Origin: Escherichia coli
Lineage (GTDB): Bacteria; Pseudomonadota; Gammaproteobacteria; Enterobacterales; Enterobacteriaceae
Reading direction: 5' to 3' (one strand)
Length of the DNA stretch: 64,000 nucleotides
NCBI RefSeq assembly: GCF_030384885.1
Contig: NZ_CP128613.1
Made by a program: the position numbers and the translations under genes
Notes under the pieces: generated by a model
What the model saw: only the letters and a program-made list of their open reading frames with translations
Database searches by the model: none
What the model was told of the DNA's origin: nothing
In this document: in pieces, positions 23,132 through 59,383 of the stretch
How the letters are laid out: each line of letters begins with the position of its first letter
Numbering within the stretch: position 1 is the first letter of the stretch

Positions 23132-24649
23132 ATGGAAAGAATAATGCAAAACAGAAAATGGATTTTGACCTCGCTGATAATGACTTTTTTCGGCATCCCC
23201 ATACTGGCGCAATTTTTGGCAGCGGTTATTGCCATGCTGGGGGCCGGGCTTGCCGCTATTCTTGAGGCTTGCAATTTACTCTTTACGCCAACAATTTATC
23301 TTCTACTCAACGTCTTTATGCTGACGCTGGGGGCGATAATCCTATTTTTCTCTGGTCGCGTGTGGGCCGGTGATAGCGCACCAGAAAACAGAGAAATAGC
23401 CGTCTGGCGGCAATGCTTTTTTCTTTTACCTGCACTGTTAACTCTGGTTGGCTGGATAATCACGCTACATCTGGCAGATTATCAATTTCGCCAAATGGGA
23501 GCAGGTTGGTTGGCAGAGCTTATGCTCCCCTGGCTGGGAGTTTTGTTAGTCTCATTAGTCGGAGGTGAGTTCTGGTGGATAGTCATTATACCCGTTGGTG
23601 CGCATATTAGTTTTTCGCTGGGGTATGGCTGGCCGACCAGATATCCTTTAACCGGCACGTACGGGTTACGTTGCCGTAATTCCCTCCTGTTTATCCTTCT
23701 CATGCTTGGTTTTATCGCTGGTTATCAGGCTTATTTATATAAACAGATTAATCCCGGCGTCGGTGTGCGTGAAAATATTGATACCTGGGCCTGGCGACCC
23801 GATAAACTCAATAATCAACTGACGCCACTGCGTGGTAAACCGCAAATTCAGTTTACACAAAACTGGCCGCGACTCGATGGTGCTACGGCGGCGTACCCAA
23901 TTTATGCTTCTGCCTTTTATGCGTTGAGCGTTATACCGGAAGATTTCCACACATGGGAATATCTGGAGAACTCTCGTACCCCCGATGCATATAACAGGAT
24001 TGTTAAAGGTGATGCCGATATTATTTTTGTGGCGCAACCTTCCGGTGGGCAGAAAAAACGTGCAGAGGAATCGGGCGTCACTTTGAACTACACTCCTTTC
24101 GCCCGTGAAGCATTCGTTTTCATCGTCAATGCGGATAACCCGGTTAATTCCCTGACTGACCAACAGGTGCGTGACATCTTCAGTGGCGCAATTACCAACT
24201 GGCGTACTGTTGGCGGTAACGATCAGGAGATCCAGACCTGGCAACGCCCGGAAGACTCTGGCAGCCAGACAGTGATGCAATCGCAGGTCATGAAAAATGT
24301 CCGCATGATCTCGCCGCAGGAAACCGAAGTGGCAAGCATGATGGAGGGAATGATTAAAGTTGTTGCCGAATACCGTAATACAAACAACTCAATAGGCTAC
24401 ACCTTCCGCTATTACGCAACACAAATGAATGCCGATAAAAATATAAAACTGCTAGCTATTAACGGTATTGCACCGACTGCGGAAAATATTCGTAACGGCA
24501 AATATCCATATATCGTCGATGCCTTTATGGTAACGCGGGAAAATACTACGTCAGAAACACAAAAACTGGTCGAATGGTTTTTAACGCCGCAGGGGCAGAG
24601 TCTGGTGGAAGATGTGGGTTATGTACCGTTGCATACAACAATGAAATAA
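23132..24649 (+). CDS. islet 1 gene 1: polytopic membrane domain fused to a PstS-like (phosphate-binding-protein fold) periplasmic domain
   Basis: 505-aa ORF; residues about 1-200 form several hydrophobic helices; the C-terminal part shows PstS-like motifs (AAYPIYASAF; QRPEDSGSQTVM, compare PstS RADGSGTS; SIGYTFRYYA). Function not assigned. Confidence 0.7.
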   Translation: MERIMQNRKWILTSLIMTFFGIPILAQFLAAVIAMLGAGLAAILEACNLLFTPTIYLLLNVFMLTLGAIILFFSGRVWAGDSAPENREIAVWRQCFFLLPALLTLVGWIITLHLADYQFRQMGAGWLAELMLPWLGVLLVSLVGGEFWWIVIIPVGAHISFSLGYGWPTRYPLTGTYGLRCRNSLLFILLMLGFIAGYQAYLYKQINPGVGVRENIDTWAWRPDKLNNQLTPLRGKPQIQFTQNWPRLDGATAAYPIYASAFYALSVIPEDFHTWEYLENSRTPDAYNRIVKGDADIIFVAQPSGGQKKRAEESGVTLNYTPFAREAFVFIVNADNPVNSLTDQQVRDIFSGAITNWRTVGGNDQEIQTWQRPEDSGSQTVMQSQVMKNVRMISPQETEVASMMEGMIKVVAEYRNTNNSIGYTFRYYATQMNADKNIKLLAINGIAPTAENIRNGKYPYIVDAFMVTRENTTSETQKLVEWFLTPQGQSLVEDVGYVPLHTTMK

Positions 24650-24674
24650 CTTTTGAGAGAACGGAATCAGCGCG

Positions 24675-25667
24675 ATGAATAAATTCATAGGCGTTTTACT
24701 GCTAGGTGCGGTTTTACTGGCGGGATGTGTCGACCGGGAAGGCTACTATAACAGCGTCAGGGAAGAAGACAGCCATGGACTGACGACTCTGCGGGGGCAA
24801 CCTGAATTACGTTACAACGATGATTGGTCAAGATGGCCGAGAGTATACGGCGCTACAGCCTTATACCCGCTGTATGCCTCCGCGTATTATGAATTAGTAC
24901 CCGAGCCAAAAGATAAGGATCGAACCTCGCTGGCCTGGCAGGCGTATGGTTTGCAACAAACCCGAACAGCTGAAGCCTACGATAGTCTGATCAAGGGTAC
25001 CGCGACGGTTATTTTTGTTGCACAACCGTCGGAAGGACAGAAAAAACGTGCAGAAGAAGCAGGCGTTAAACTGAAATATACCGCGTTTGCCCGCGAAGCC
25101 TTTGTCTTTATCGTTGATATCAAAAACCCGGTTAATTCACTTAGCGAACAGCAGGTCAAAGACATTTTTAGCGGTAAAGTGAGTCGCTGGAATAAAGTGG
25201 GCGGCGGTGACGAAAGTATAAAAGTCTGGCAGCGGCCAGAAGATTCTGGAAGCCAAACGGTTATGAAGGGACTGGTTATGCAAGATACTCCAATGCTGCC
25301 AGCCAAAAAATCCACTGTTATCGATCTTATGGGCGGTTTAATTACCGAAGTCGCCGACTACCAAAACACAACATCTTCCATTGGATACACCTTCCACTAT
25401 TACGTCACACGTATGAATGACAATATGCTCAAAATGCGCAAACAGATCAAACTGCTAGCTATAACTGGCATTGCGCCTACAGAGGAAAATATCCGTAACG
25501 GCACTTATCCGTACATAATTGATGCTTATATGGTGACGCACGAAACCCCTGCGCTGGAAACGCAGAAATTCGTCGACTGGTTTTTAAGCCCGCAGGGACA
25601 GCAATTGGTAGAGGATGTGGGGTATGTGCCGATTCATGACGCATCATACGAATCATCAGTGCAATAA
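24675..25667 (+). CDS. islet 1 gene 2: lipoprotein with PstS-like substrate-binding domain
   Basis: 330 aa; lipobox LLAGC; same motifs as the gene-1 C-terminal domain (ALYPLYASAYY; QRPEDSGSQTVM; SIGYTFHYY). Confidence 0.72.
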   Translation: MNKFIGVLLLGAVLLAGCVDREGYYNSVREEDSHGLTTLRGQPELRYNDDWSRWPRVYGATALYPLYASAYYELVPEPKDKDRTSLAWQAYGLQQTRTAEAYDSLIKGTATVIFVAQPSEGQKKRAEEAGVKLKYTAFAREAFVFIVDIKNPVNSLSEQQVKDIFSGKVSRWNKVGGGDESIKVWQRPEDSGSQTVMKGLVMQDTPMLPAKKSTVIDLMGGLITEVADYQNTTSSIGYTFHYYVTRMNDNMLKMRKQIKLLAITGIAPTEENIRNGTYPYIIDAYMVTHETPALETQKFVDWFLSPQGQQLVEDVGYVPIHDASYESSVQ

Positions 25668-26269
25668 TGATGAATAAAATCAGACTTTATATTCCTCCGT
25701 TAATTCTTGGTTTTGTTATTGTGCCGTTGTTGGTGTGGCCGACGGTGGTTGCGCTGGCTGCTTCTGTTATCACGCTGAGTTTTCTGGGAGAGATACTGTT
25801 CTCTATCCCGCTCATGATCAGGCGTATTTCACTTCTGCAATTACAACTATGGTTATCGGCTGAATATGCGCTTTTCTTCTGTGCAATGGTGGGCGTTGGT
25901 TGGCAATTTGCGCGCAGAACGCCACCTGAATTGAAAAGCAGACTGCATTGTTGGCTGGTATTTGCACCAGTTTATTTCTGGTTGCTCCTGTGGAATATCA
26001 TTTTCTATGTCGCGCCAGCGAATATTGCGTTGCTGGAGAATATGCGCAGTTTCTTTCTGACAGTTGTCTGGCTCCCACTGAATTTTTCGCCATTTTGGTC
26101 TCAACCGTGGATTGACTTTGTCGGTCCAATAAGCGCACAGCTTGGTTTTGCGTTGGGATATTATTGCCAGTGGCGTAGCAAAAATAGAAGCCAGATACGG
26201 AAGTGGAGTGAGTGGGGAACGTGCCTGAGTTTTGTTACGTTGGGTATGATGGCGTGGGCTTTGCGGTAA
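25667..26269 (+). CDS. islet 1 gene 3: small polytopic membrane protein, paralog of the gene-1 N-terminal domain
   Basis: 200 aa, 4-6 hydrophobic segments; PISAQLGFALGYYCQW resembles PVGAHISFSLGYGW in gene 1; start ATG overlaps the gene-2 stop (TAATG). Confidence 0.65.
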   Translation: MMNKIRLYIPPLILGFVIVPLLVWPTVVALAASVITLSFLGEILFSIPLMIRRISLLQLQLWLSAEYALFFCAMVGVGWQFARRTPPELKSRLHCWLVFAPVYFWLLLWNIIFYVAPANIALLENMRSFFLTVVWLPLNFSPFWSQPWIDFVGPISAQLGFALGYYCQWRSKNRSQIRKWSEWGTCLSFVTLGMMAWALR

Positions 26270-26376
26270 TTCCCTGACTCAAAAAGTAGGTCAGATTGTT
26301 GACAAAGTGCGCTTTGTTCATGCCGGATGCGACATGAACGTCTTATTGGCCTACAAGACCATGCAAATTGTAGTGG

Positions 26377-27626
<1,250 letters not shown>

Positions 27627-33181: not shown

Positions 33182-34408
33182 ATGAATTACGAATTACTGA
33201 CCACTGAAAATGCCCCGGTAAAAATGTGGACCAAAGGCGTGCCGGTAGAGGCCGATGCGCGTCAGCAACTTATTAATACGGCGAAGATGCCGTTTATTTT
33301 CAAACATATTGCGGTAATGCCGGATGTACACCTGGGTAAAGGTTCCACCATTGGTAGCGTGATCCCAACCAAAGGAGCGATTATTCCGGCGGCGGTGGGG
33401 GTAGATATCGGTTGTGGAATGAACGCACTGCGAACTGCGTTAACGGCGGCTGACCTGCCTGAAAACCTGGCGGAGCTGCGTCAGGCGATTGAAACTGCCG
33501 TGCCGCACGGACGTTCCAATAATCGTAGCCGTCGTGATAAAGGCGCATGGGAGCATCCGCCTGTTAACGTCGATGCTAAATGGGCCGAGCTGGAAGCTGG
33601 TTATCAGTGGTTAACGCAAAAATATCCGCGTTTCCTTAACACTAATAACTATAAACATCTGGGAACGCTGGGAACGGGTAACCACTTTATTGAAATCTGC
33701 CTTGATGAGTCGGACCAGGTGTGGATTATGCTGCACTCCGGTTCACGCGGAATTGGTAATGCCATCGGGACTTACTTTATCGATCTGGCACAAAAAGAGA
33801 TGCAGGAAACGCTTGAAACGTTGCCATCGCGTGACCTGGCGTACTTTATGGAAGGTACGGAATACTTTGATGATTACCTGAAAGCGGTGGCCTGGGCGCA
33901 GCTTTTTGCCAGCCTTAACCGCGATGCGATGATGGAAAATGTGGTAACGGCGTTGCAGAGCGTTACGCAGAAAACGGTAAGACAGCCACAAACGCTGGCG
34001 ATGGAAGAGATCAACTGTCACCACAACTATGTGCAAAAAGAACAGCACTTTGGCGAAGAGATCTATGTGACGCGTAAAGGCGCGGTGTCTGCGCGTGCTG
34101 GTCAATATGGAATTATTCCCGGTTCGATGGGGGCGAAAAGCTTTATTGTCCGTGGGCTGGGAAATGAAGAGTCGTTCTGTTCGTGCAGCCACGGTGCCGG
34201 GCGGGTAATGAGCCGTACTAAAGCGAAAAAACTGTTCAGCGTGGAAGATCAAATTCGTGCCACCGCGCATGTGGAATGCCGTAAAGATGCCGAAGTGATC
34301 GACGAAATCCCGATGGCGTATAAAGATATCGACGCGGTGATGGCGGCACAAAGCGATCTGGTGGAAGTTATCTACACCCTGCGTCAGGTGGTGTGTGTAA
34401 AAGGATAA
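33182..34408 (+). CDS. rtcB: RNA-splicing ligase RtcB
   Basis: 408 aa; conserved RtcB metal/GTP-binding His/Cys motifs. Confidence 0.95.
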   Translation: MNYELLTTENAPVKMWTKGVPVEADARQQLINTAKMPFIFKHIAVMPDVHLGKGSTIGSVIPTKGAIIPAAVGVDIGCGMNALRTALTAADLPENLAELRQAIETAVPHGRSNNRSRRDKGAWEHPPVNVDAKWAELEAGYQWLTQKYPRFLNTNNYKHLGTLGTGNHFIEICLDESDQVWIMLHSGSRGIGNAIGTYFIDLAQKEMQETLETLPSRDLAYFMEGTEYFDDYLKAVAWAQLFASLNRDAMMENVVTALQSVTQKTVRQPQTLAMEEINCHHNYVQKEQHFGEEIYVTRKGAVSARAGQYGIIPGSMGAKSFIVRGLGNEESFCSCSHGAGRVMSRTKAKKLFSVEDQIRATAHVECRKDAEVIDEIPMAYKDIDAVMAAQSDLVEVIYTLRQVVCVKG

Positions 34409-54624: not shown

Positions 54625-56693
<2,069 letters not shown>

Positions 56694-56695
56694 AT

Positions 56696-56731
56696 AAAAC
56701 GGGAGGAGAAGGAGCCTCCTGTTTTATTTTG
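56696..56731 (+). terminator. envZ rho-independent terminator
   Basis: aaaacgggagg-agaaggag-cctcctgtttt followed by atttt. Confidence 0.7.
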
Positions 56732-56856
56732 TGCACTCAGTATCTACTGAATGAATACGGTCTCAGACATCGGCACCATACGAAGTAAAGTGTACTGTAA
56801 GCTGATTGCAGGCTAGCGTATCCTGATTAGTAAAAGCACACTAAAGGAATAGCTTG

Positions 56857-58140
56857 ATGCAACTTACCAACGAAGAACAAGTACAGATTGCTCGTATAAA
56901 AGAAAAAATCCCACGCATTGCCGCACTGGATCCTGAATGTAAGTTATTCGGTTCTGAAGGTTGGAAATATCAATGGCCGAAGCCTGCCAGCGAGGCGGAA
57001 ATAGCTTCCTGGGAGAAAAAACATAGCGTCACTTTGCCACGGGAATATCGAATTTTTCTTCGCTATATCGCTAATGGCGGTCCGGCACATGCCTACGGTC
57101 TTGAATCTTTAGGCGGTACAGATATTTATGGCGATATAACAAAAGAAAGCCCTGTACCGCTTTATATGACGCAGCAGGATGTTGATGTGTTGAATGCTGG
57201 CCGTACAGAAGATGATGAAGAATATAGTTTTTTTGACGGCGCATTGACCATTCTCACCCTGGGATGTACTTATGATATTTGCCTGGTGGTGACGGGGCAG
57301 TATCGCGGAAGGTTAATGCTGACTGATGGTGATGAAGATTATCCGTTTGATTTTATATATGATAAAAATTTCCTCAACTGGTATGAACGCTGGCTGGACG
57401 ATTTTATTGCTGGCATGAGTATGAAGGGTTTCGATAGAAGTTTGCCAGGAACGCAAATTCAACTGCGTGAGTGGTTTTTAACTGAGAAAATCCCGGATTT
57501 ACGTAGATCCATTTTATTCTCGCTATGCCGTTTTCCACAGATAGAACCCGAAACTTTTGCCCTTTGGGAACATGTTTGCCGTACAGAGAATGATAAAGAA
57601 TTGTGTGAAGAGGCATTCATAAGATTACGCCAAAAAAAAGTTTCTTGTGCTGCAGATATTTTTCGACTCTATTTTGCAATGTCAGATGAATTACGTGATA
57701 TTGCTATTAAAGATCTCCGTTTTGCCTGTAGAGATAGTGTGGTGAATATTGAGGATTATATTCATTCACTGTTAATAATAATGCCTGAACTTGACGATGA
57801 CACTCTATCCTCAGCTGTCTTTGCTATACGAGAAACAGAGTATAATAAATATGATACTTTTCTGCCGCTTCTCGAACGTATCACTGATGACCGTCAGCAA
57901 ACATTATTGTGGGCGATGAGTAAGGCGCCTGATTTCAATGAAAGCCGAGGATTCGTTGAGTTGGTATTACCGCTTTTTGCATCATCAAAGATGGAGAATG
58001 TAAGGAAGGCTATTTTGTTGCTCATTGAAGTTAAAGATAATCGTATTCCACCATTGGTTGATGAAGCTGCAACTCGTTTCCCTGAACTGACCATTTTACG
58101 AGAAAACTACTATCTCAGGACGTGGGGACATAAGCCATAA
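56857..58140 (+). CDS. islet 2 ORF A: SUKH (SMI1/KNR4)-like N-terminal domain fused to a C-terminal alpha-helical repeat (HEAT/ARM-like) domain
   Basis: ATG at 56857 with AAAGGA Shine-Dalgarno 8 nt upstream; N-terminal motif SWEKKHSVTLPREYRIFLRYIANGG and YDKNFLNWYERWLDDFI typical of SMI1/KNR4; C-terminal half has repeated helix pairs. Confidence 0.7.
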   Translation: MQLTNEEQVQIARIKEKIPRIAALDPECKLFGSEGWKYQWPKPASEAEIASWEKKHSVTLPREYRIFLRYIANGGPAHAYGLESLGGTDIYGDITKESPVPLYMTQQDVDVLNAGRTEDDEEYSFFDGALTILTLGCTYDICLVVTGQYRGRLMLTDGDEDYPFDFIYDKNFLNWYERWLDDFIAGMSMKGFDRSLPGTQIQLREWFLTEKIPDLRRSILFSLCRFPQIEPETFALWEHVCRTENDKELCEEAFIRLRQKKVSCAADIFRLYFAMSDELRDIAIKDLRFACRDSVVNIEDYIHSLLIIMPELDDDTLSSAVFAIRETEYNKYDTFLPLLERITDDRQQTLLWAMSKAPDFNESRGFVELVLPLFASSKMENVRKAILLLIEVKDNRIPPLVDEAATRFPELTILRENYYLRTWGHKP

Positions 58141-58177
58141 ATTAATGGTTCAGAAATGATCTAACGCGGAGAAAAAT

Positions 58178-58708
58178 ATGATCAGGGAACATATTCAGCA
58201 AGCGATAAATAATAGGTTAGCATTTGATGGCCCATTCAATGTTGTTCCTGAACCTGCAAGCACTGCGTTTGATAGCCGGATCCCGACATTGAAAAACGGT
58301 GTCTGGCAGAAGGCCAGCCCTATGTTGCAGGCGCGTTTTGCACATTGTGGACGTTGGTTAAGCGCTACACATGGAAGCTGGCTAAGTATAAGTGACATGG
58401 AAACGCTTTGGCAGGAACACATAGAAGATACGTTTCTTGATGAAATCAAAATGAATGCTGTAGCTTCAAGTGATAATTGGGATAACCATGCCTTGGGACT
58501 ATTTCGTTCTCATCGCCTGTCACTTTTTGCCGGTAGTGATTACAGTTATGAAATGGTTTTTCTCCTTTGGCTAGATAGTACCGTTGAGCCAGAGGTCTGG
58601 GTTTATGACTGCAATGGGGAATCACGTTATAAAGATCTTAATGATTACCTGAATGCATATATTAATGATGACGTAAGCGCCTGTGAGCGCTCTTGGCGAG
58701 TAGAATGA
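58178..58708 (+). CDS. islet 2 ORF B: hypothetical 176-aa cytoplasmic protein
   Basis: ATG with GGAG Shine-Dalgarno; no confident family assignment by eye; the C-terminal EPEVWVYDCNGESRYKDLNDYLNAYIN loosely resembles the C-terminal signature of SUKH-type immunity proteins. Confidence 0.55.
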   Translation: MIREHIQQAINNRLAFDGPFNVVPEPASTAFDSRIPTLKNGVWQKASPMLQARFAHCGRWLSATHGSWLSISDMETLWQEHIEDTFLDEIKMNAVASSDNWDNHALGLFRSHRLSLFAGSDYSYEMVFLLWLDSTVEPEVWVYDCNGESRYKDLNDYLNAYINDDVSACERSWRVE

Positions 58709-59331
58709 ATAGCCCCCCTTGCCCCTTTGATCCACAAACCGCACATTACCTCGGCACAGTGCAAATCCACTACACCTCAACCACCTTCAACGCTGCCGTT
58801 AAGCATTATACCTATCACATTAAAAAGCGTTTTAAAGGGGTTAAATGGGGAATTGGTACCGCTGGCTTATTGGCTATATTGCCCATGATCCCACAATGGT
58901 TGAAACCTTCTCATGACTTTAAACTCAACGCAATCAGTACGTTAATTCTTCTATTAATGTTGCCACTCCTCTTATCAATGTTCCTGTTAATCAGCAGAAG
59001 AATTAACGATTTTAAGTCAAAAACAAAGCAAGTTACTTTTACGAAACCCGTGCGTTATGCGTTTTATTTCGAGGGGATTGTTTTTTATGAATCTCATCAG
59101 CAGGGCATACTTCGCTGGGAAGATTTTTATGGCATTGAGTATGAAGAAGATTATTTGTGGCTTTTTCTGCATTTACCGAAGAGTTTTCCCAGAGAAGCGA
59201 CGAAAGCGTTTTGCGATATTTTCATTCCCACCAGTGCGATAAAAGCGCAGCCTGAACTGGATACGTTTTTTCGTGAAACACGCCACTCGCTGGATTATCT
59301 GTTTGTCCCGTTTAATTCTGACAGAAAATAA
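58705..59331 (+). CDS. islet 2 ORF C: small membrane protein, possibly YcxB-like (two TM helices plus a PH-like domain)
   Basis: ATG at 58705 overlaps the ORF B stop (ATGA); two hydrophobic helices (GIGTAGLLAILPMIPQWL; ISTLILLLMLPLLLSMFLLI) followed by a soluble domain. Confidence 0.6.
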   Translation: MNSPPCPFDPQTAHYLGTVQIHYTSTTFNAAVKHYTYHIKKRFKGVKWGIGTAGLLAILPMIPQWLKPSHDFKLNAISTLILLLMLPLLLSMFLLISRRINDFKSKTKQVTFTKPVRYAFYFEGIVFYESHQQGILRWEDFYGIEYEEDYLWLFLHLPKSFPREATKAFCDIFIPTSAIKAQPELDTFFRETRHSLDYLFVPFNSDRK

Positions 59332-59334
59332 CAT

Positions 59335-59362
59335 ATCCCCCGTATCTGGTGAAACGGGGGAT
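59335..59362 (-). terminator. pck rho-independent terminator (also ends islet 2)
   Basis: atcccccgt-atctggtgaa-acgggggat perfect stem; T-rich on the minus strand after the hairpin. Confidence 0.7.
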
Positions 59363-59383
59363 TTCGTCGCTTAACTTATCGGA

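What the first reader, a model, noticed from the sequence alone, without database searches (positions are those of the whole stretch)
56857..58140. ORF A: SUKH (SMI1/KNR4) immunity-type domain fused to a helical-repeat domain, with no toxin gene nearby
The N-terminal ~190 aa carries the signature I associate with SMI1/KNR4 (SUKH-1) proteins (SWEKKHSVTLPREYRIFLRYIANGG ... FDFIYDKNFLNWYERWLDDFI). These are best known as immunity proteins of polymorphic toxin systems. No Rhs, CdiA or other toxin ORF is adjacent, and the domain is fused to a ~230-aa alpha-helical repeat region. That suggests either an orphan immunity gene or a SUKH fold repurposed as a binding or sensor module.
Basis: partly seen in the sequence, partly recalled or inferred. 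Interest (0 to 1): 0.7.

Follow-up and report, generated by a model that had tools for sequence, protein, structure and literature searches.

The report
Orphan SUKH–HEAT immunity-type gene island
A rare three-gene insert between envZ and pckA of E. coli looks like a small store of antidote genes against toxins injected by rival bacteria; the gene in question is a correctly recognised but untested binding protein of a known kind.

Summary

- ORF A is the first gene of a low-GC, three-gene cassette found in 18 of 5,426 complete E. coli genomes.
- The next gene, ORF B, has no Pfam hit but also folds as SUKH. Its homologues sit directly behind Rhs toxins of one homologous family, in Pectobacterium and in 31 other E. 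coli genomes.
- The envZ-pckA site carries other cargo elsewhere: CdiI_5 immunity genes in Salmonella, a RelE/NadS pair, or nothing.
- SUKH+HEAT is not a one-off fusion. It is a fixed architecture with more than 500 clusters (50% identity) in at least six phyla, nearly always without a toxin neighbour.

Best reading (confidence 0.55): ORF A is an orphan immunity-type, toxin-binding protein in a small polyimmunity locus. No partner toxin was found, so a non-immunity adaptor role remains open.

It is a new member of a known kind, of modest interest.

The parts
56857..58140 (+). ORF A, 427 aa, SUKH-HEAT protein (WP_001177605.1)
56953..57408 (+). SUKH (SMI1/KNR4) alpha+beta domain of ORF A, aa ~33-184, preceded by a conserved N-terminal helix (aa 5-24, 56869-56928)
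57454..58125 (+). HEAT-like repeat solenoid of ORF A, aa ~200-423, 14 helices
58178..58708 (+). ORF B, 176 aa, cryptic SUKH-fold immunity-type protein with no Pfam family
58705..59331 (+). ORF C, ~208 aa, small membrane protein (two hydrophobic helices read from the sequence plus a C-terminal domain); function unknown. It is the pckA-proximal gene wherever a homologue was found at the locus
   Evidence: The ATG at 58705 overlaps the ORF B stop (ATGA). Conservation starts upstream of the PGAP GTG at 58759. Only weak hits: YcxB E=0.56, MASE8 0.035, PycTM 0.017. Present next to pckA in Salmonella, the G50 isolate, E. coli/Shigella, strain A30 and E. albertii.
56692..56729 (.). envZ terminator hairpin, conserved in strains with an empty site; left edge of the insert lies just after it (~56733)
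   Evidence: Inverted repeat I2. Terminator scan. Same hairpin in DH10B, where only a 75-nt spacer separates envZ and pckA.
59335..59362 (.). Hairpin between ORF C and the 3' end of pckA; right edge of the insert (~59383)
   Evidence: Inverted repeat I5. Sequence. GC falls to 0.35-0.45 across 56650-59350, against about 0.55 in the flanks.

Best explanation
ORF A is a cytoplasmic, non-enzymatic binding protein of the SUKH immunity-protein superfamily with a HEAT-repeat extension. It is carried as an orphan (pre-emptive) immunity gene in a three-gene, horizontally acquired polyimmunity cassette between envZ and pckA. Inferred mechanism: when a competitor injects a polymorphic toxin domain through a T6SS/Rhs or CDI system, the SUKH domain binds it and blocks it. 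The fast-evolving HEAT solenoid would add a second binding surface that sets or widens specificity. Shown here: the two folds, the cassette structure, its strain variability, and the toxin linkage of the neighbouring ORF B family. Inferred: that ORF A itself binds a toxin, and which toxin.
For: Folds:
- HEAT repeats and SUKH are both listed as immunity domains, and polyimmunity loci and proteins are described, in Zhang et al. 2012 (PMC3482391).

Locus:
- GC drops to about 0.40.
- The three genes are co-directional with a 37-nt gap and an ATGA overlap.
- The cassette is present in 18 of 5,426 E. coli genomes.
- The same site is empty, or holds NadS/RelE, or IS200. In Salmonella it holds CdiI_5 genes.

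Neighbour ORF B:
- It has a SUKH fold.
- Its homologues sit immediately 3' of homologous Rhs toxin tips in Pectobacterium and in 31 E. coli genomes.

Relatives of ORF A:
- Capnocytophaga and Saccharibacillus members sit in long co-directional arrays of small genes, with a weak Imm-NTF2 hit next door in Capnocytophaga.
- A truncated copy of the SUKH half (54% identity) lies inside a CdiA-CT/Imm31/deaminase array on a Serratia plasmid.
- ORF A is split into two ORFs (211 and 179 aa) in the E. albertii type strain, as expected for a dispensable gene.
Against: - No full-length member of the family was found next to a toxin: 7 annotated neighbourhoods and 80 genome loci.
- Pfam over 96 operonic neighbours shows no toxin family and only 2 SUKH proteins. 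The upstream neighbours checked are housekeeping genes such as ribosomal protein S1, DhaK, PBP2 and a beta-lactamase-like gene.
- The architecture and the FLxWYERWLD helix are conserved across at least six phyla. That would be unusual for an immunity protein tracking a polymorphic toxin.
- The Serratia copy is truncated and flanked by a group II intron and an IS fragment, so its context may be accidental.
- Similarity of the HEAT half to YibA is at fold level only (hhalign probability 5.9%).
- Nothing here measures binding or protection.
Confidence: 0.55

Rival explanations
1. The SUKH-HEAT protein is not an immunity protein. It is a stand-alone protein-protein adaptor or regulatory hub, like yeast Knr4/Smi1 or the SUKH domain of FBXO3, that binds a conserved cellular or envelope-related partner. 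It merely happens to sit in an insertion hotspot in E. coli.
For: - The architecture is fixed at about 440-480 aa in 518 clusters (50% identity) at E<=1e-30, almost all full-length matches, with full-length structural matches in Firmicutes, Actinobacteria, Proteobacteria, Bacteroidetes, Planctomycetes and Deinococcus.
- Members are solo genes among housekeeping neighbours in Klebsiella, E. coli (yoaA-yoaB) and Flavobacterium.
- Operonic neighbours show no toxin or immunity enrichment.
- The SUKH half carries a near-invariant motif.
Against: - Distribution within the species is sporadic: 0.3% of E. coli genomes for ORF A and 2 of 5,426 for the paralogue.
- The region is low in GC, and ORF A is split into two ORFs (a likely pseudogene) in E. 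albertii.
- The gene travels with an Rhs-immunity family gene, in a locus that carries CdiI_5 genes in Salmonella.
- Relatives occur in array-type loci.
- A housekeeping adaptor would be expected in the core genome.
Confidence: 0.25
2. ORF A, B and C form one functional system, for example an abortive-infection or anti-phage module. In it the SUKH-HEAT protein would sense a phage protein and the membrane protein ORF C would act as effector.
For: The operon is tight and ORF B and ORF C overlap by ATGA. ORF C is a small membrane protein with a weak PADLOC PycTM hit, E=0.017. The locus lies in a hotspot that also hosts a toxin-antitoxin pair.
Against: - Each gene occurs independently of the others. 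ORF A relatives are solo. ORF B relatives follow Rhs toxins or stand alone. ORF C occurs alone or behind CdiI_5 or a 142-aa gene.
- There is no significant PADLOC, PHROG or NCBIfam match for any of the three.
- Phage records hold only four matches, all to the SUKH half in Listeria phage records.
Confidence: 0.08
3. ORF A is a decaying remnant with no current function, hitch-hiking beside ORF B and ORF C.
For: It is split into two ORFs in E. albertii. A truncated copy exists on a Serratia plasmid. No sigma-70-like promoter was found upstream on the + strand by the simple scan.
Against: The gene is intact and at least 99.5% identical in all 18 E. coli carriers. It has a Shine-Dalgarno-like AGGA 9 nt upstream of the ATG. 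The model is confident and well packed. Full-length homologues are maintained in hundreds of lineages.
Confidence: 0.07

Closest known systems
SUKH-superfamily immunity proteins of polymorphic toxin systems (e.g. B. subtilis YobK, PDB 2PRV; Zhang et al. 2011/2012)
   Same: Same fold and Pfam family. Cytoplasmic, non-enzymatic and strain-variable. Located in a co-directional cluster with another immunity-type gene and no intervening toxin, as described for polyimmunity loci.
   Different: About 230 extra residues of HEAT repeats. No cognate toxin is adjacent in any full-length relative examined. The SUKH half is far more conserved across phyla than is usual for immunity proteins.
Polyimmunity proteins and polyimmunity loci (Zhang et al. 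2012, PMC3482391)
   Same: One polypeptide carries two domain types that are each listed as immunity domains (SUKH and Imm-HEAT). The locus holds tandem, tightly spaced, same-strand genes whose content varies between strains.
   Different: [quoted passage not shown] The locus has only three genes and no adjacent recombinase. The fusion is a fixed ancient architecture rather than an ad hoc concatenation.
E. coli YibA (PDB 1OYZ), a HEAT-repeat protein encoded 20 nt downstream of rhsA
   Different: Only generic HEAT-repeat sequence similarity: profile E=0.015 and hhalign probability 5.9%. YibA has no SUKH domain.
Yeast Knr4/Smi1 and human FBXO3 SUKH domains
   Different: They are eukaryotic, sit in other domain contexts (disordered tails, an F-box), and have no link to mobile cassettes.

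Membership tests
SUKH superfamily / Pfam SMI1_KNR4 (PF09346) | Significant match to the family profile | tested here: met
   SMI1_KNR4 E=2.7e-6 (28.4 bits) and SUKH_6 E=3.4e-5. PF09346 is precomputed for the cluster representative, and RefSeq names it SMI1/KNR4.
SUKH superfamily / Pfam SMI1_KNR4 (PF09346) | Alpha+beta SUKH fold | tested here: met
Immunity protein of a polymorphic toxin system (functional class) | Gene lies immediately downstream of its cognate toxin gene in at least some genomes | tested here: not met
   None of 7 annotated neighbourhoods and none of 80 genome loci has an adjacent toxin. Only a truncated SUKH-only copy sits inside a CdiA-CT array on a Serratia plasmid.
Immunity protein of a polymorphic toxin system (functional class) | Member of a polyimmunity-type locus: same-strand, tightly spaced immunity genes, no intervening toxin, strain-variable content | tested here: met
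   The ORF A-B gap is 37 nt and ORF B-C overlap by ATGA. The ORF B family is paired with Rhs toxins. The site holds CdiI_5 genes in Salmonella and other cargo elsewhere. The cassette is in 18 of 5,426 genomes.
Immunity protein of a polymorphic toxin system (functional class) | Binds and neutralises a toxin domain | not testable with these tools
   Needs co-expression rescue, competition assays or binding measurements.
HEAT-repeat proteins (Pfam HEAT_2, PF13646) / 'Imm-HEAT' | Profile match to HEAT-like repeats and a solenoid fold | tested here: met
HEAT-repeat proteins (Pfam HEAT_2, PF13646) / 'Imm-HEAT' | Specific homology to a HEAT protein in a proven or positional immunity role (YibA type) | tested here: inconclusive
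Known anti-phage defence systems (PADLOC-DB 2.0) | Significant match of any island protein to a defence-system model | tested here: not met
   ORF A and ORF B have no hits. ORF C matches PycTM only at E=0.017.

The most novel reading that the evidence does not exclude
SUKH-HEAT proteins are a distinct, ancient, toxin-independent family (>500 clusters in at least six phyla). The conserved SUKH face, with its FLxWYERWLD helix, would recognise one widely conserved ligand: either a broadly distributed effector class, giving broad-spectrum 'innate' immunity, or a conserved phage or cell component. The fast-evolving HEAT arm would tune specificity. That would make it a new class of stand-alone protective or sensor protein, not a cognate immunity protein.
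Probability: 0.2. Interest if true: 0.6.

Novelty: new member of a known kind. Interest (0 to 1): 0.33.

Why it matters
If ORF A and ORF B protect against toxins fired by other E. coli, the island is a compact natural example of 'acquired interbacterial defence' in a gut pathogen lineage. Homologous Rhs toxin tips with an ORF B-like partner exist in 31 complete genomes. The envZ-pckA site would then be a small, easily scored hotspot for such cargo. The SUKH-HEAT family is large and uncharacterised and has no known partner. Finding its ligand would clarify what the many solitary SMI1/KNR4 genes in bacterial genomes are for. As it stands, the gene is already correctly named in RefSeq and nothing about it contradicts current ideas.

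Tried and rejected
- **ORF B as a sequence relative of ORF A's SUKH domain.** hhalign and a PDB profile search found nothing. Only the structure prediction showed the SUKH fold.
- **A Pfam family for the Rhs toxin tip paired with ORF B.** None found.
- **A gene conserved next to the SUKH-HEAT family.** Clustering 1,504 ORFs from 80 loci gave only lineage-local synteny and generic families such as ABC ATPases. Large neighbouring ORFs turned out to be an LPXTG-type surface protein with a probable sortase (my reading of the sequences), a protein with only a weak EruA/NACHT hit (E=1.5e-4) and one with a caspase-like N-terminus (my reading). None is a polymorphic toxin.
- **The 170-aa gene after the Superficieibacter homologue as an ORF B relative.** No similarity.
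- **The 142-aa gene in ORF A's slot in L099 as a remnant of ORF A.** No similarity.
- **Insertion scars.** No flanking direct repeats or att-like sequences. No convincing + strand promoter upstream of ORF A.
- **Literature.** Searches for SUKH with HEAT repeats, or SUKH with phage defence, returned only Zhang et al. 2012 as relevant.
- **NCBIfam, PADLOC and PHROGs.** Uninformative for all three island proteins.

Full report
**1.

The window is the chromosome of E. coli strain 2013C-4282 (NZ_CP027579.1), matched at 100% identity. ORF A runs from an ATG at 56857 to the stop at 58140 and encodes 427 aa. RefSeq annotates the same CDS as WP_001177605.1, 'SMI1/KNR4 family protein'.

- Pfam finds SMI1_KNR4 at aa 43-152 (E=2.7e-6) and SUKH_6 at aa 46-169 (E=3.4e-5).
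- An AlphaFold2 model built on 24 homologues is confident (pLDDT 89.7, pTM 0.82). It shows an N-terminal helix (aa 5-24), an alpha+beta domain (aa ~33-184) and 14 helices (aa 200-423).
- A profile of the family hits alphaRep/HEAT-repeat proteins at E=1e-17. Several homologues carry Pfam HEAT_2.

**2. The surroundings**

ORF A is the first of three same-strand genes in a low-GC patch (0.35-0.45, against about 0.55 in the flanks). The patch lies between the envZ terminator hairpin (56692-56729) and the 3' end of pckA.

- ORF B (58178-58708, 176 aa) follows ORF A after 37 nt.
- ORF C starts at an ATG (58705) that overlaps the ORF B stop (ATGA). Conservation among 14 homologues shows that this start, or one near it, is more likely than the GTG at 58759 that PGAP chose.

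The rest of the 64-kb window is core E. coli: ugp, ggt, gnt, glg, glp, rtc, mal, feo, tex, greB, ompR-envZ, pckA, yhgE and hslO. It has no Rhs, CdiA or T6SS gene. 'No toxin nearby' is therefore correct.

**3. The locus is a cassette site**

Only 18 of 5,426 complete E. coli genomes carry the three-gene insert. ORF A is intact and at least 99.5% identical in all of them. The states seen at this site are:

| Genome(s) | Content between envZ and pckA |
|---|---|
| Many sampled E. coli genomes, e.g. DH10B | 75-nt spacer only |
| Many E. coli | NadS plus a RelE/ParE toxin, on the other strand |
| One sampled E. coli | IS200 |
| A Salmonella enterica isolate | 152-aa gene, a CdiI_5 gene, a CdiI_5 fragment, an ORF C homologue |
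| An E. coli/Shigella lineage | 142-aa gene with a faint HEAT_2 hit (unrelated to ORF A), an ORF B homologue, an ORF C homologue |
| E. coli strain A30 | The 142-aa type gene appears fused in frame to ORF C |
| Isolate G50 | ORF C homologue only |
| E. albertii type strain | The island, with ORF A split into 211- and 179-aa pieces; ORF B and ORF C intact |

I found no flanking repeats or recombinase.

**4. ORF B is a hidden SUKH protein of an Rhs-immunity family**

- In Pectobacterium parmentieri a 56%-identical homologue starts 20 nt after a 1,423-aa PAAR-Rhs protein that follows Hcp, VgrG and a DcrB-type gene.
- In 31 other complete E. coli genomes a 49%-identical homologue overlaps the end of an Rhs fragment in a vgrG-DUF2169-PAAR island, next to a second Rhs-core/Imm11 pair.
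- The two Rhs proteins are homologous through their tips beyond the DPxGL motif, sharing the motif GHxPDVGWGG. Pfam does not recognise this tip.

ORF B is therefore best read as an orphan copy of the immunity gene for that Rhs toxin family, which other E. coli strains encode.

**5. The SUKH-HEAT family**

A word-indexed search found only 24 clusters, but two wider searches show a large family.

- A profile search of 1.84 billion representatives gave 518 proteins at E<=1e-30. Nearly all of the best 150 match in a single stretch, and most span almost the whole profile (about positions 8-430, lengths mostly 430-480 aa).
- A scan of 100,044 species genomes for the peptide WYERWLD found 322 confirmed loci. 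These are mostly Paenibacillaceae, but also Chitinophaga, Capnocytophaga, Providencia, Xenorhabdus and Kitasatospora.
- Foldseek against AFDB50 gives full-length matches (TM about 0.7-0.8) in Firmicutes, Actinobacteria, Proteobacteria, Bacteroidetes, Planctomycetes and Deinococcus. All are named only 'Knr4/Smi1-like'.
- Across 120 full-length members the SUKH half is much better conserved than the HEAT half (median identity to ORF A 33% against 15%). A near-invariant helix, F172-L-x-W-Y-E-R-W-L-D181, stands out.

The fusion is thus a fixed architecture, not an oddity of this gene.

**6. Do toxins ever lie next to it?**

- In Klebsiella aerogenes, in E. coli (a 39%-identical paralogue between yoaA and yoaB) and in Flavobacterium, the gene is a solo insertion between housekeeping genes.
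- In Superficieibacter it heads a run of small, mostly uncharacterised genes.
- In Capnocytophaga and Saccharibacillus it sits in long same-strand arrays of small genes without annotation, with a weak Imm-NTF2 hit next door in Capnocytophaga.
- Across 80 genome loci no neighbour is conserved beyond local synteny. The large neighbouring ORFs I checked are not polymorphic toxins.
- A Pfam scan of 96 operonic neighbours shows no toxin family and only two further SUKH proteins.
- The one toxin-rich context is a Serratia plasmid. There a truncated copy of the SUKH half (54% identity over aa 1-185) lies among CdiA fragments, a 'polymorphic toxin type 17' gene, two Imm31 genes and a deaminase. It is bracketed by a group II intron and an IS fragment.
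- The phage collection holds only four matches to ORF A, all to the SUKH half in Listeria phage records.

**7. Interpretation**

Several facts fit the description of polyimmunity loci and polyimmunity proteins in Zhang et al. 2012, which lists both SUKH and HEAT repeats as immunity domains (PMC3482391):

- The genes are tightly spaced on one strand, and the cargo at the site varies between strains.
- The adjacent SUKH-fold gene has Rhs-linked relatives, and the same site in Salmonella carries CdiI_5 genes.
- ORF A has decayed in E. albertii.

In E. coli K-12 the HEAT-repeat protein YibA sits 20 nt behind rhsA, although its similarity to ORF A is only at fold level.

I therefore rate 'orphan immunity-type binding protein in a mini polyimmunity cassette' as most likely, at 0.55. 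The main rival, at 0.25, is that SUKH-HEAT proteins are toxin-independent adaptors. This is supported by their conservation, their fixed architecture and the complete lack of adjacent toxins. A single three-gene defence system (0.08) is disfavoured because each gene occurs independently of the others and none matches a PADLOC model. A dead remnant (0.07) is disfavoured because the gene is intact in all 18 carriers.

**8. Novelty and verdict**

The gene is already correctly named in RefSeq and UniProt, and its kind is well described. Three things are new here:

- The neighbouring ORF B is a cryptic SUKH immunity protein of an uncatalogued Rhs toxin family.
- envZ-pckA is a small cassette hotspot for such genes.
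- SUKH-HEAT is a large, fixed, partner-less family that is not among the SUKH fusions listed in the literature I could search.

The finding is sound but ordinary in kind, so interest is modest.

Noticed in passing
window 58178-58708 (ORF B); L012 9600-9981; L106 8250-9192: ORF B has no Pfam family but folds as SUKH. Its family pairs with an Rhs C-terminal toxin tip (motif GHxPDVGWGG) that has no Pfam match either. Together they look like an uncatalogued toxin-immunity pair, present in Pectobacterium and in 31 complete E. coli genomes.
   Followed up: yes
window 58705-59331 (ORF C): The PGAP start (GTG at 58759) looks too late. Conservation in homologues begins upstream, and an ATG at 58705 overlaps the ORF B stop (ATGA). 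ORF C is the pckA-proximal gene at this locus in every genome where a homologue was found (Escherichia, Salmonella and isolate G50). Its function is unknown.
   Followed up: partly
window 56694-59383 (envZ-pckA spacer): The site is an insertion hotspot. It is empty (75 nt) in many sampled E. coli genomes. Other strains hold NadS plus RelE/ParE, IS200, or a 142-aa gene with a faint HEAT_2 hit. Salmonella holds CdiI_5 genes. No repeats or recombinase were seen.
   Followed up: partly
window ~23142-27555: A second accessory patch lies between glgP and glpD. It holds two PstS-family phosphate-binding genes, a hypothetical gene and an IS3 transposase.
   Followed up: no
window ~33183-34408: rtcB is annotated as a frameshifted pseudogene in this strain.
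   Followed up: no
L009 9026-9961; L010 8492-9511; L066 8472-9494: A DUF7638/DUF7639 gene lies just upstream of the SUKH-HEAT gene in both Saccharibacillus (Firmicutes) and Capnocytophaga (Bacteroidetes). The two are 28% identical. This could be a recurrent array partner.
   Followed up: partly
L035 9460-9969 and eight other Paenibacillaceae loci (L050, L062, L065, L070, L071, L075, L079, L080): A 169-193-aa gene lies 14-19 nt upstream of the SUKH-HEAT gene. It has a weak endonuclease V-like NCBIfam hit (E=1e-5, far below the cut-off) and no PDB sequence match. It could be local synteny or a partner gene.
   Followed up: partly
L015 1656-2696 (E. coli A30); L099 7483-7911: In strain A30 the 346-aa gene carries ORF C (84% identity) after an N-terminal part that shares a short motif (NNPR..Y.D.LN.LLVTSGHYH) with the 142-aa gene of L099. 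This suggests an in-frame fusion with no ORF B between them; the two N-terminal parts were not directly aligned.
   Followed up: partly
L006-L008 8001-9275; NZ_CP074749.1; NZ_ABACVG020000001.1: A second, 39%-identical SUKH-HEAT gene sits between yoaA and yoaB in only 2 of 5,426 complete E. coli genomes. Both of those genomes also carry ORF A.
   Followed up: partly
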